Part shown: one piece after another, positions 15,001 through 64,000 of the stretch | Position numbering within the stretch: position 1 is the stretch's first letter | Layout: the number at the start of each line of letters is the position of its first letter | From: Ophelia neglecta | Taxonomy: Eukaryota | Length of the DNA stretch: 64,000 nt | Direction of reading: 5' to 3' | NCBI GenBank assembly: GCA_965285935.1 | Contig: OZ260665.1 | Span: 36,084,001 to 36,148,000, forward strand | Program-made: the position numbers

Positions 15001-18000
15001 AAGGCATGAAGCATACCATAGGGTGTGGATGTTGCAAGAAGAACAAAATTGAGCCACGTGAGTATCCACTTCACGTTGATTTTTGTTCTCTCATCGGCTA
15101 TTAATAGGCTTCTCGTTTTTTACATTTATCTTTACATCATTAATAGGATATTCTTATTAGAACAACCTGTTAAACCTGTGTTATTTATTTGTTAGTCGGG
15201 GCCGAGTCGCATCCCTCCCATCCCCGGGATAATCAGGAACATGCCACTGCTGTGGGTTCAAATCGACATACCAAAAGGAAACACTCATCCCTTTTGCATA
15301 CGCCTGCTCTACTTCCCCCGTCAACAAAGAGCAAACGGAAAAGATCGGTGGTACTACTACCAACAATCACCGAAGATGAAGCGGAACGCATTTCACCAGC
15401 ACCAGTGGAAAAGTCAACTTCGGAGAAATCTATCCAGTAAAATACAGCGGTGTATTTTATTAAAATAGTCAAAGCAGCAGTTGTAATATACCCACTAACG
15501 TTATTATCTAGTAATAACTATTCATTGTTATTCTTTTATTGTTCATTGCTGCAGGAATATCCTTTGCAATTAGCCGAATTCAAACAGCAAAGAGTTTAGA
15601 CTAATCGGAATCATACGACAGTTGGCGATTTGATTCAGGTACGACCAGTCGTCAATGTTTGCTAAAGATCGCCAACTGCAGTCGCATAATAGTCGTAGCT
15701 CATTCTGCGATTGGTGGTACGTGTTCGTGCGATCACCAATGACTCGAGAAGATCGATCGCAAGAATGACTAAAGGCAATTGTACGACTTGCGGAGACGAT
15801 TGGCGACCATCGCGCGATCACCGTGGCGACCTGCAACCAATCGTTGCGATCTGTGACTGATTCGCTCTGCAAGTCTCGAATCAGATTGGCATAGTTGCTT
15901 AGAAGGACCGCCTCTGAATCCAATGAAGCACTCCGTAATGGCGCTTTCTTCTCTCGTTGCACGGGAGCGATCCCCCACGACCTGGGGGTGGGAGTCTGGA
16001 TCAAAATGTGGAACCCGGGACTCAAGGGTCCCCTGCCCCCCCCCCCCTCAAAGGATCAACCCACCCGCATAAATCCGCCAAATGCTGCAATGACCACGAC
16101 CTCTTTATTTTAGCCTGACGATTCTGTTGTCGCCCATTCGCTCTCGTTCCAATTACCCAGGGAAAAGATATATAGCTTTATATATTCTGAATCACTATAC
16201 ACTTCAATTTTCCAGAAGGAAGCTATATAATTATTAATTATAAAACACAGTCATGTAATAAAAACATACAAAATTTATTTAACAATTCGTATACAAATAA
16301 ATACATAAACATATAAAATGATCAACGCTCGTTTAAAGGGTTTTGTTTTCGCAGAAAGAGAGCTGGCCCATGTGCCTGAATATACATATTCTTAGTGTTG
16401 AGAATTGGAATAATACTATTAATATAGTTATATAATTAATTATTATAATAAACGATCTACTTTAGAGCACAGTCAGTCATGATATTGACATCAACTGCTG
16501 TTGTCTGGTTTAAAATAATATTATTATTCTTATTAATACATTCATGCATGCACACTTGGTCGATATCCATGCTCCATAAGATATATACTGATATTTCATG
16601 TTCACTTCCATTTTTTGCATATTTAAAATGAAAAATTGCAAGGTTGGTACATTTTTGGCAAAAACATACGCTTTTATAATAGAAGACTGGAGATTATTTT
16701 TACAACAGAGACAGGCGTCCACCATTATATTTACTTTATGGTCATCATGGTCACGAATTCTGCAATGATACAGTACATATTTAACAGGTTGATATGTTCA
16801 GCAACTCTCAAATATAATTTGAGATGCAAGAATGTTGAAAACTACACTGTTTAGGGGTCAATTTGGAGCTAGGTTTTTTAAAATCAAGCCAATATAGGTC
16901 CACAATTTAATGAAGTTTGTTCATGAACACTCCTTTCTTGACCTATTATCAAGTATGATTATCCAAATAGAATAATTATCTGCTTTTAAATTAATTACCG
17001 CTTTGTACTAACCATGCACACATTGGTGAGATTCCTTTCAGAAGCCTTCTGGTCCCTCGGGGGGGGGGGGGGGGGAGGCACCCCCATATATGGCCAGGGT
17101 AGGAATGCTCCGCGGTAAAGAGTATCTTTTTCACGATTATTACTTAACACATTGGTATCTTTTTCATAAGGGTGCTATCATATGGGTCCCTTTTCACAGT
17201 TATGCCATCAAATGGGTCGTCACATATTTTTATTAAGGAGCAAAGATGGATTGGATCAATTTATAGCTAGGTTTGTAATAATCAAGCAATATGACCACCA
17301 TTAACTCAGTTTAGCTAGGTTTGTCAAAATCTTATCATTAGGATCGAATTTTCAGCTTTTCTGGAGAATTTTTCTACACAAAGGGTAGGCCTACAATTTT
17401 CGAAAAAAAAATCTGTCAAAAGTGTACCTTTCTGAAATATACCTATCAACTGGGTATATTTTTCGAAAACAATTTCGTCAAATGGTTATTTTTTCAGGAC
17501 ATTTTCTATCATAATGACCCCTATTTTTAAAGCTGCGCGGAGCATCCCCGCCCTAAAGTATAGGAAGTCCCCCCCTCCCCCACCTGGCTACTCGTATTCA
17601 CTAATCAGCCATCACACAAAGAGTTACACGAACAAATGCAAGTCTATTATGCATCAGTCACAGATCAAAAAAGATATCACCTAATTTAGTAGGTTAGTAG
17701 GGCCTAGTACAGGGATCAATGAAAACCTCTATTTTGATCTAGGAGGAAAGATGTGTTTGAAAGCAGTAGCAACTTCCATCTCCGGTTCCCATGTTCTGTC
17801 CTCTCCAAATGTTTTACCATGCACAAAAGACATCAAAAACTTTGTAGTCAGCCTGCTGGTTTATGTATAGTCACGGAAAGCAGTTATAAGCTGTTAATTA
17901 TAAAATTGCTGCGCTGTACACCATGTGGGTTAGGATGCCACTAAATGATATTCCCTAAATACATCTCGTGTTAGTAGGATCCCATTCCCCTCATGGCGGT

Positions 18001-63000: not shown

Positions 63001-64000
63001 TGTTTTTGATATTAACAGAGCTATGCCTTACTCCACGATTGTATTGTCATAAATGTAGGTTGCACGGCAGGCTTTATACCAAAAGCTGATATAAGCTGAA
63101 AAGGGTGTTTTATTTTGGTAGGCTAGTTGCTTGTATTTAAAAATGCGATATGGTTCAATGCCATATTAGTTTATTTCAGTAGAACTGTTTATGTTTTACG
63201 TACGCGGTGCCATGTGTACTATTGGAAAGATCTCTGATCCCAACCCCTCACCCAAACCCGCAACTGCAGCTGTAAAGTGTGTGCAAGAATATTCAGTGTT
63301 TCTACTTTCGTCTGTTTTCGACCAATTAATTAACTGCTTTTTGATTCTATTTTCAGAATTCTAAGGCGTCTGGAATCAGAATAGTTAGGCTCTTGCCAGC
63401 TAGTTGAAACATGGTAAGTCATAATGATTTGTCTGGGAACCCCACAATGGTAGTCAGCATTCACTCGGAAGGTGTAGGACGGGTGGCGGCTCCCTCGGCG
63501 CCGTCCGGGATGGCATATCAATTAAACGCTATGATATTATAGAGAAGATTTCAGGGGCATTTATAATGAAATATGTGTCTTTATACATGTGTCAACAATG
63601 AGTTTAACGAAAGGGTGAAAGGGCGTTTTTTGCATAATTAATAATCAAAATATATTGAAATATTTGTAGATTTGAAAATCGTAAACAATGAATCAAAAGA
63701 AAGGGTAATAAGGTGTTTTAGTTGCATAATTAATATTCAAAACATATTGAAATATTTGTCGATTTGAAAATCGTAATTTGCGTCAAGCTTTCTTGGAGAG
63801 CATTTTGTGATTACCAATTTATAAGCCCAGCTCTCCAAAGATAAAGGGGTGAAAACGAATACTTACAAATGAATTACCAGGTTTGGATCATTTTTTTAAA
63901 AGAGTTGTTTTACAATAACAGGGTGACACCATAGAGCTGACGGAGGAGCAGATCAACGGTAAAAATACTTGTATAATTGTTTATTTTTCAAAATGACCAT

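What the first reader, a model, noticed from the sequence alone, without database searches (positions are those of the whole stretch)
16731..63958. Head-to-head pair of non-canonical calmodulin genes, both missed or only partly seen by the ORF track
Seen: a - strand calmodulin paralogue with exon 2 NIDQRRLTEEQIA (28944-28983), and at the window edge a + strand gene with ATG|GTAAGT (63413) and exon 2 GDTIELTEEQIN (63922-63958). Known: canonical CaM exon 2 is 31 nt (ADQLTEEQIA). Here the two are 40 and 37 nt with different N-terminal extensions. Inference: this is part of a lineage-expanded calmodulin cluster diverging from a shared ~30 kb region in which I found no other gene, possibly with shared enhancers.
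Basis: partly seen in the sequence, partly recalled or inferred. Interest (0 to 1): 0.7.

Follow-up and report, generated by a model that had tools for sequence, protein, structure and literature searches.

The report
Two divergent calmodulin-like genes, invertebrate genome
The window holds one nearly complete calmodulin-like gene and the first two exons of a second, pointing away from each other, which is an ordinary pair of old paralogues in an invertebrate genome.

Summary
On the - strand there is a calmodulin (CaM)-like gene with exons at 28983-28944 (40 nt), 20240-20097 (144), 19617-19456 (162), 18962-18882 (81) and 16759-16731 (29, ending TAA). All have AG/GT borders in the CaM phases. 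Its start-codon exon could not be located. On the + strand, ATG|GTAAGT at 63411 lies 508 nt upstream of a 37-nt exon (63922-63958, GDTIELTEEQIN) with the same phases; the window ends 42 nt later. L[TS]EEQI occurs twice in the window and in 0 of 200 simulated windows.

Gene 1 is about 90% identical to canonical CaM and has four intact EF-hand loops. With an ATG-only exon 1 it would encode 152 aa, so it is a CaM-like paralogue rather than the housekeeping CaM. One intron position (after NLG, phase 1) is not seen in abalone or human CaM genes.

No other recognisable gene lies between the two (150 ORFs tested), but that 34.4 kb must contain gene 1's exon 1 and intron 1. All 6 shared LTEEQI codons differ synonymously, so the duplication is old. 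Shared enhancers and a larger cluster remain untested.

CaM-family expansions are already published. This is a new member of a known kind, of low interest.

The parts
28944..28983 (-). Gene 1 exon 2, 40 nt, NIDQRRLTEEQIA plus the first base of a split GAG (E) codon. Acceptor tttctag, donor GTAAGT. An in-frame stop lies directly upstream, so it must be spliced to an upstream start exon.
20097..20240 (-). Gene 1 exon 3, 144 nt, EF-hand 1 and the first half of EF-hand 2. 44 of 47 whole codons are identical to solved calmodulin.
19456..19617 (-). Gene 1 exon 4, 162 nt, the rest of EF-hand 2 and EF-hand 3. 47 of 53 codons are identical to solved calmodulin. It ends after NL+G with a weak donor, TAG|GTTATT.
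18882..18962 (-). Gene 1 exon 5, 81 nt, [26 protein letters not shown] (EF-hand 4). 22 of 26 identical to fish calmodulin; 26 of 26 to the Paralvinella palmiformis protein P0099.
16731..16759 (-). Gene 1 last coding segment, 29 nt, (E)FVTMMTIK then TAA. AATAAA signals lie 452 and 622 nt downstream, at 16279 and 16109.
34141..34143 (-). Candidate start-codon exon of gene 1 (agaATG|gtaagg). Highest donor score among 41 ATG|GT sites on the - strand between the genes. Unverified.
53059..53061 (-). Second candidate start-codon exon of gene 1 (gaaATG|gtaaga). Unverified.
63411..63413 (+). Gene 2 start codon, aacATG|GTAAGT. The only ATGGTRAGT in the window, 508 nt upstream of exon 2.
63922..63958 (+). 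Gene 2 exon 2, 37 nt, GDTIELTEEQIN plus the first base of a split codon. Acceptor aataacag, donor GTAAAA. An in-frame stop lies directly upstream. The window ends at 64000.
28984..63410 (.). 34,427 nt between gene 1 exon 2 and the gene 2 start. No recognisable protein domain, RNA family, tRNA or CaM exon. It must contain gene 1's intron 1 and exon 1.

Best explanation
Two old paralogues of the calmodulin family sit in divergent orientation in the genome of an invertebrate. The animal is probably a lophotrochozoan; the species was not determined, and I do not take it for human.

Gene 1 (- strand, at least 12.25 kb from exon 2 to the stop) most likely encodes a working four-EF-hand Ca2+ sensor. 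With an ATG-only exon 1 it would be 152 aa. It would bind Ca2+ in four intact loops and expose the conserved methionine-rich surfaces to clamp target helices, as calmodulin does. Its 3-residue-longer, basic N-terminus (NIDQRR) is the main difference.

Gene 2 (+ strand) starts with an ATG-only exon and a CaM-type exon 2. It most likely continues outside the window with EF-hand exons.

Shown: the exons, phases, splice sites, EF-hand domains and identities. Inferred: expression, Ca2+ and target binding, the place of gene 1's exon 1, and the rest of gene 2.
For: Exon structure and phases:
- Exon lengths are 40, 144, 162, 81 and 29 nt. All have AG acceptors and GT donors.
- The split codons read E, G, G, E, which are the residues found at those places in CaM.
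- With a 3-nt start exon the total is 459 nt, or 152 codons plus a stop.

Domain and identity evidence:
- EF-hand Pfam families match exons 3, 4 and 5 (EF-hand_1 E 2.6e-11, 1.7e-16 and 4.5e-06).
- Solved calmodulins are the best PDB matches for exon 3 (44/47 identical) and exon 4 (47/53).
- Against a fish calmodulin: 44/47, 47/53, 22/26 and 6/8 for exons 3-6, giving 119/134.
- The loops [36 protein letters not shown] and [12 protein letters not shown] keep all ligand positions.
- All 9 methionines of the fish calmodulin (P0092) that lie in the parts aligned to exons 3-6 are kept in gene 1 (alignments). That these form the target-binding patches is recalled.

Gene 2 and the relation between the two genes:
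- L[TS]EEQI occurs 2 times observed against 0 of 200 simulations with any.
- LTEEQI is coded by 6 of 6 synonymously different codons in the two genes. That indicates purifying selection on both and an old split.
- A Pecten maximus CaM-like model contains ...ENLTEEQINEFKEAF, so the LTEEQIN variant of gene 2 exists in real CaM-like proteins.

Published context:
- Exon 1 is ATG only, and intron 1 can exceed 13 kb in abalone CaM D (PMC6171432, passages and Discussion read).
Against: - Gene 1's start exon was not found. No ATGGTRAGT lies on its strand. The two best ATG|GT candidates are indistinguishable without transcripts, and neither resembles gene 2's 5' region. Local alignment score was 24 against a shuffle mean of 23 and maximum of 32.
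- The exon 4 donor TAG|GTTATT scores -0.76 on a rough donor matrix. The matrix values are recalled, not fitted to this genome. The other four donors of gene 1 and gene 2 exon 1 score 3.3 to 6.6, and gene 2 exon 2 scores 1.3.
- Only 12 codons of gene 2 are visible.
- No protein identical to exon 4 appeared among the best 120 of 4616 hits, so no annotation or transcript support was seen.
- No expression data of any kind were available.
Confidence: 0.8

Rival explanations
1. One reading: the two genes are part of a recently expanded, lineage-specific calmodulin cluster whose members share enhancers in a common gene-free region of about 30 kb.
For: - Two CaM-family genes lie within 47 kb, with no other recognisable gene between them.
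- The top database hits for exon 4 are long fused models of several CaM units from bivalves, abalone and amphioxus. This shows that neighbouring CaM-like genes are common in such genomes.
- Expansions of the calmodulin family to 20-46 copies in shelled molluscs are published (PMC7016017, passages read).
Against: - Only two members are visible.
- Self-comparison finds no similarity outside tandem arrays.
- 6 of 6 shared codons differ synonymously, so the split is old.
- An annelid protein (P0099) matches gene 1 exon 5 at 26/26 and shares 6 of the 13 changes that separate gene 1 from canonical CaM in exons 3-5. This hints that the paralogue predates the lineage.
- Part of the 34 kb is gene 1's own intron 1.
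- Nothing tests enhancers.
Confidence: 0.2
2. Gene 1 is a 5'-truncated or decaying copy (pseudogene) that has lost its start exon and is losing a splice site.
For: - No start exon was found.
- The exon 4 donor is weak, TAG|GTTATT.
- No identical protein appears among the listed database hits.
Against: - Five exons totalling 456 nt have no stop or frameshift and keep the correct phases.
- All four Ca2+ loops are intact.
- Identity to CaM is about 90%.
- ATG-only first exons are known to be unfindable without transcripts (PMC6171432, Discussion).
Confidence: 0.1
3. The gene 2 signal is a relic or a chance exon-like stretch with no functional calmodulin-like gene behind it.
For: - Only 12 codons and a 3-nt start exon are visible.
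- The donor GTAAAA is mediocre, score 1.3.
- ATGGTRAGT alone is expected by chance in a window of this size.
Against: - The motif appears in 0 of 200 simulated windows.
- The acceptor and donor sit in exactly the CaM phases.
- An in-frame stop lies just upstream, as in gene 1.
- A start codon with A at -3 and a consensus donor lies 508 nt upstream.
Confidence: 0.1

Closest known systems
Canonical metazoan calmodulin genes (abalone CaM A-D, PMC6171432; vertebrate CALM1-3)
   Same: - ATG-only exon 1 (seen for gene 2).
- Exon 2 enters in phase 0 and leaves in phase 1 within ...EEQIA|E.
- A 144-nt exon 3 ending in DADG.
- A 29-nt last coding segment.
- Four EF-hands; 119/134 identical residues in exons 3-6.
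   Different: - Exon 2 is 40 nt (gene 1) and 37 nt (gene 2) against a recalled 31 nt.
- The inferred protein is 152 aa, not 149.
- About 15 substitutions, whereas the abalone CaMs are 94-98% similar to human CaM.
- The 243-nt block is split after NLG (162 + 81 nt). Abalone has no intron there, and human has one at a different place. The human position is recalled; the paper says only that human has one extra intron in that exon.
Calmodulin-like proteins of lophotrochozoans, e.g. Paralvinella palmiformis LSH36_97g02025 (P0099) and the multi-unit CaM-like models of Ylistrum, Pecten, Mytilus and Haliotis
   Same: - P0099 is 26/26 identical in exon 5 and 49/53 in exon 4. It shares the MAKKM, EELREAF and [22 protein letters not shown] states.
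- The Pecten model has LTEEQIN, as gene 2 does.
   Different: - Neither N-terminal extension (NIDQRR, GDTIE) was found in any of the 123 stored hit proteins (P0003-P0125).
- P0099's ends are mispredicted. It reads through the last intron, so orthology cannot be settled.
- No tree was built, because that would need the joined model.
Amphioxus CaM / CaM-like gene group (Karabinos and Bhattacharya 2000)
   Same: Several CaM and CaM-like genes in one invertebrate genome. Branchiostoma multi-unit models are among the top hits.
   Different: The paper was seen only as a citation in PMC6171432 and was not read. Linkage and intron details are not verified here.

Membership tests
Bona fide calmodulin | Four canonical EF-hand Ca2+ loops | tested here: met
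   Pfam EF-hand families match exons 3, 4 and 5. Loop sequences were read. Gene 1 only.
Bona fide calmodulin | 149 codons, with identity to vertebrate CaM in the range of invertebrate CaMs (abalone 94-98% similarity, PMC6171432) | tested here: not met
   Exon lengths sum to 152 codons with an ATG-only exon 1. Exons 3-6 are 119/134 (89%) identical.
Bona fide calmodulin | Gene plan: ATG-only exon 1, short exon 2 leaving in phase 1, 144-nt exon 3, 29-nt last coding segment | tested here: inconclusive
   Met for exons 2, 3 and 6 of gene 1 and for exons 1-2 of gene 2. Exon 1 of gene 1 was not found. There is an extra intron after NLG.
Calmodulin-like (CaM-like / CML) EF-hand proteins | CaM-type EF-hand pairs with clear but incomplete identity to CaM | tested here: met
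   for gene 1. For gene 2 only the exon 2 motif is available.
Clustered, lineage-expanded CaM gene array | Several CaM-family genes adjacent, related by recent duplication | tested here: inconclusive
   Two genes in 64 kb, no third. No nucleotide similarity between them. 6/6 synonymous differences. The flanks beyond the window cannot be read.
Bidirectional-promoter gene pair | Divergent start sites within about 1 kb | tested here: not met
   The nearest - strand ATG|GT site to gene 2's start among the 25 best-scoring of 41 is at 61755, with a poor donor score of -2.77. The two best-scoring candidates lie about 10.3 and about 29.3 kb away.
Gene 2 as a full calmodulin-like gene | EF-hand exons downstream of exon 2 | not testable with these tools
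   The window ends 42 nt after exon 2. No collection of eukaryotic genomes was open to extend it.

The most novel reading that the evidence does not exclude
Gene 1 represents an old CaM-like paralogue conserved across lophotrochozoans; it shares derived residues with an annelid protein. It has acquired a new intron at an AG|GT site in the Gly codon after NL and a basic N-terminal extension. It is kept in divergent linkage with a second CaM-like gene across a 10-30 kb gene-poor regulatory landscape that co-regulates both.
Probability: 0.12. Interest if true: 0.3.

Novelty: new member of a known kind. Interest (0 to 1): 0.15.

Why it matters
The practical value is for annotation. CaM-family genes with a 3-nt first exon and a 37-40-nt second exon are routinely mispredicted. 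Database models fuse neighbouring copies or read through introns, and the abalone paper makes the same point. The exon map given here could correct a gene model. Biologically it adds one more pair of CaM-like paralogues to families already known to be expanded in several invertebrate groups. It neither opens nor closes any larger question.

Tried and rejected
- Exon 1 of gene 1. The exact pattern ATGGTRAGT found only gene 2's site. Ranking 41 ATG|GT sites gave two candidates that cannot be told apart. Aligning their upstream 1 kb to gene 2's 5' region gave scores no better than shuffles. An ATG at 29022, 38 nt before exon 2, was rejected because of its poor donor (score -2.07) and a 38-nt intron, against 479-8703 nt for the gene's other introns.\n- Self-comparison of the window found no inverted duplication; only tandem arrays appeared.\n- Other genes between the two. 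A Pfam scan of 150 ORFs gave nothing credible. Rfam and the tRNA scan found nothing. ORFs under 60 aa and lineage-specific genes would be missed, and one ORF (25254-26000, the frame through the 36-bp repeat) was left out to fit the 150 limit.\n- Species identification. The exon 4 search was dominated by multi-unit models. The two neighbouring receptor exons gave only 3 hits each, with the best named ones being Lingula 47%, Ylistrum 39% and Elysia 39%. The result is lophotrochozoan-like but unresolved.\n- Literature on the NLG intron and on head-to-head CaM pairs. Searches found nothing specific. This covers only the held open-access library. Yuasa 1999/2001 and Karabinos 2000 are not held and were not read.\n- One simulation script timed out and was rerun in a faster form.\n- The spliced (joined) protein was not assembled, searched, folded or placed on a tree. 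All work was done exon by exon.

Full report
**What the window is.** It is 64 kb with no N, G+C 0.39 and CpG observed/expected 0.75. It carries spliced genes with GT-AG introns and several minisatellites. The neighbouring receptor genes find their best named relatives in a brachiopod, a scallop and sea slugs, at 39-47% identity. The calmodulin-like exons find bivalve, abalone, amphioxus and annelid models. I take it for an invertebrate, probably a lophotrochozoan, and not for human. The species was not determined.

**The observation.**
- The - strand exon 28983-28944 reads NIDQRRLTEEQIA plus one base. It has a polypyrimidine-AG acceptor and a GTAAGT donor.
- The + strand has aacATG|GTAAGT at 63411-63413. 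After a 508-nt intron comes an exon, 63922-63958, reading GDTIELTEEQIN plus one base.
- Both exons have an in-frame stop directly upstream, so each must be spliced to a start exon.
- L[TS]EEQI occurs twice in the six frames and in 0 of 200 simulated windows.
- ATGGTRAGT occurs once. By itself that is expected by chance, since 73 of 100 shuffles have one or more. Its position just upstream of exon 2 is what counts.

**Gene 1 in full.**

| Exon | Coordinates (- strand) | Length |
|---|---|---|
| 2 | 28983-28944 | 40 nt |
| 3 | 20240-20097 | 144 nt |
| 4 | 19617-19456 | 162 nt |
| 5 | 18962-18882 | 81 nt |
| 6 (coding part, ends TAA) | 16759-16731 | 29 nt |

- Introns 2 to 5 are 8703, 479, 493 and 2122 nt.
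- The split codons read E, G, G, E.
- With a 3-nt start exon the coding length is 459 nt, or 152 codons.
- AATAAA signals follow 452 and 622 nt after the stop.
Every search was made exon by exon, and the joined protein was neither searched, folded nor placed on a tree.

**What gene 1 encodes.**
- EF-hand families match exons 3, 4 and 5.
- Solved calmodulins are the top PDB matches, with 44/47 and 47/53 identical residues for exons 3 and 4.
- Against a fish calmodulin among the hits, exons 3-6 give 44/47, 47/53, 22/26 and 6/8, or 119/134.
- All four Ca2+ loops keep their ligand positions.
- All nine methionines that the fish calmodulin P0092 has in the parts aligned to exons 3-6 are kept. Their role in target binding is recalled knowledge.
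- The protein is therefore most likely a working Ca2+ sensor acting as calmodulin does.
- It is not the housekeeping calmodulin. It would be three residues longer and carries about 15 substitutions, whereas the four abalone calmodulins are 149 aa and 94-98% similar to the human protein (PMC6171432, abstract and passages).

**Gene structure compared.**
- The ATG-only exon 1, the phase-1 exit of exon 2, the 144-nt exon 3 and the 29-nt last segment are the calmodulin plan.
- The abalone genes have no intron in the 243-nt block, and human genes have one extra intron there.
- Here the block is split as 162 + 81 nt after NLG, at a CTAG|GT site. As far as I recall, this is a different place from the human one.
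- Its donor, TAG|GTTATT, is the weakest in the gene (rough recalled matrix).
- The intron carries a TACA-type microsatellite.
- Whether this intron is a lineage-specific gain could not be tested.

**Exon 1 of gene 1.** It was not found.
- Of 41 ATG|GT sites on the - strand between the genes, the best are at 34143 and 53061.
- Neither upstream region resembles gene 2's 5' region beyond chance.
- Long first introns have precedent: more than 13 kb in abalone CaM D. The same paper states that CaM genes are hard to predict without transcripts because exon 1 codes only the start codon.

**The space between the genes.**
- From 28984 to 63410 is 34,427 nt.
- 150 stop-to-stop ORFs of 60 aa or more in 20300-63400 gave no credible Pfam match. 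The only hit was one at E 0.0063.
- There is no Rfam family, no tRNA, and no further calmodulin-like exon anywhere in the window.
- The region is nonetheless partly gene 1's own intron 1. The true distance between the start exons would be about 29 kb or about 10 kb for the two candidates. That is far more than a shared bidirectional promoter.

**Age of the pair.**
- Self-comparison shows no similarity outside tandem arrays.
- The six codons of LTEEQI are all different at synonymous sites between the two genes: TTG/CTG, ACT/ACG, GAA/GAG, GAA/GAG, CAA/CAG, ATA/ATC.
- The peptide is therefore conserved while silent sites are saturated, which means an old duplication under purifying selection.
- An annelid protein (Paralvinella palmiformis, P0099) is identical to gene 1 over exon 5 (26/26) and 49/53 over exon 4. 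It shares 6 of the 13 changes that set gene 1 apart from canonical calmodulin in exons 3-5.
- Unnamed 150-aa proteins share a similar number. Convergence cannot be excluded, and no tree was made.

**Known context.**
- Expansions of the calmodulin family are in print: 20-46 copies in shelled molluscs (PMC7016017, passages), and expanded Calmodulin-A-like families in giant clams (PMC11700175, passage).
- The top hits are long models made of several calmodulin units. The two I read, from Ylistrum and Pecten, look like neighbouring genes fused by prediction.
- My searches for a head-to-head calmodulin pair or for the NLG intron found nothing specific in the held library. Older key papers (Yuasa 1999, 2001; Karabinos and Bhattacharya 2000) were seen only as citations.

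**What stayed unchecked.**
- The rest of gene 2: the window ends at 64000, and no eukaryotic genome collection was available.
- Any expression evidence.
- The metagenome and viral contig collections, which were closed.
- Supplementary files, which were closed and not needed.

**Verdict.** This is an ordinary pair of old calmodulin-like paralogues, useful mainly as a corrected gene model.

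Noticed in passing
window 664-6249 and 10041-15086, + strand: Two tandem rhodopsin-type receptor genes related to QRFP-like peptide receptors, each with about five coding exons. A: about 712-1071, 1412-1636, 4083-4310, 4673-4780, 6052-6249. B: about 10290-10580, 13220-13432, 13711-13893, 14129-14284, 14898-15086. B ends convergent with the CaM-like gene 1. Best named relatives reach only 39-47% identity (Lingula, Ylistrum, Elysia)..
   Followed up: partly
window 1664-3744: A G-rich 38-bp satellite of about 55 copies (81% matches, GC skew 0.55). 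It starts 28 nt after receptor A's second exon match, inside that gene's intron.
   Followed up: no
window 25193-26022: A 36-bp repeat of 23 copies inside intron 2 of gene 1. Because 36 is a multiple of 3, it gives a 249-aa open frame on the + strand (DSNLNSEGLQPC repeated). I take this for an artefact of the repeat.
   Followed up: no
window 18389-18715 and 19346-19435: A 24/50/100-bp minisatellite in intron 5 and a TACA-type microsatellite in intron 4 of gene 1. Gene 2's intron 1 also carries a 92-bp direct repeat at 63594-63776.
   Followed up: no
window 15501-16250: The only patch outside the window's first 1.75 kb with G+C above 0.42 and CpG observed/expected above 1.0 (up to 1.3). It lies between the end of receptor B and the poly(A) signals of gene 1. 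A 161-aa open frame on the - strand there has no Pfam match.
   Followed up: no
window 34165-34180 and 34465-34480, - strand: The motif TTCGCCTATATA occurs twice, about 300 nt apart, upstream of the candidate start exon at 34143. It may be TATA-like promoter elements or chance.
   Followed up: no
database proteins P0003, P0010, P0092, P0099: Public CaM-family gene models are often wrong. Some fuse several neighbouring units into proteins of 559-818 aa, and others read through introns after DADG or NYE.
   Followed up: partly
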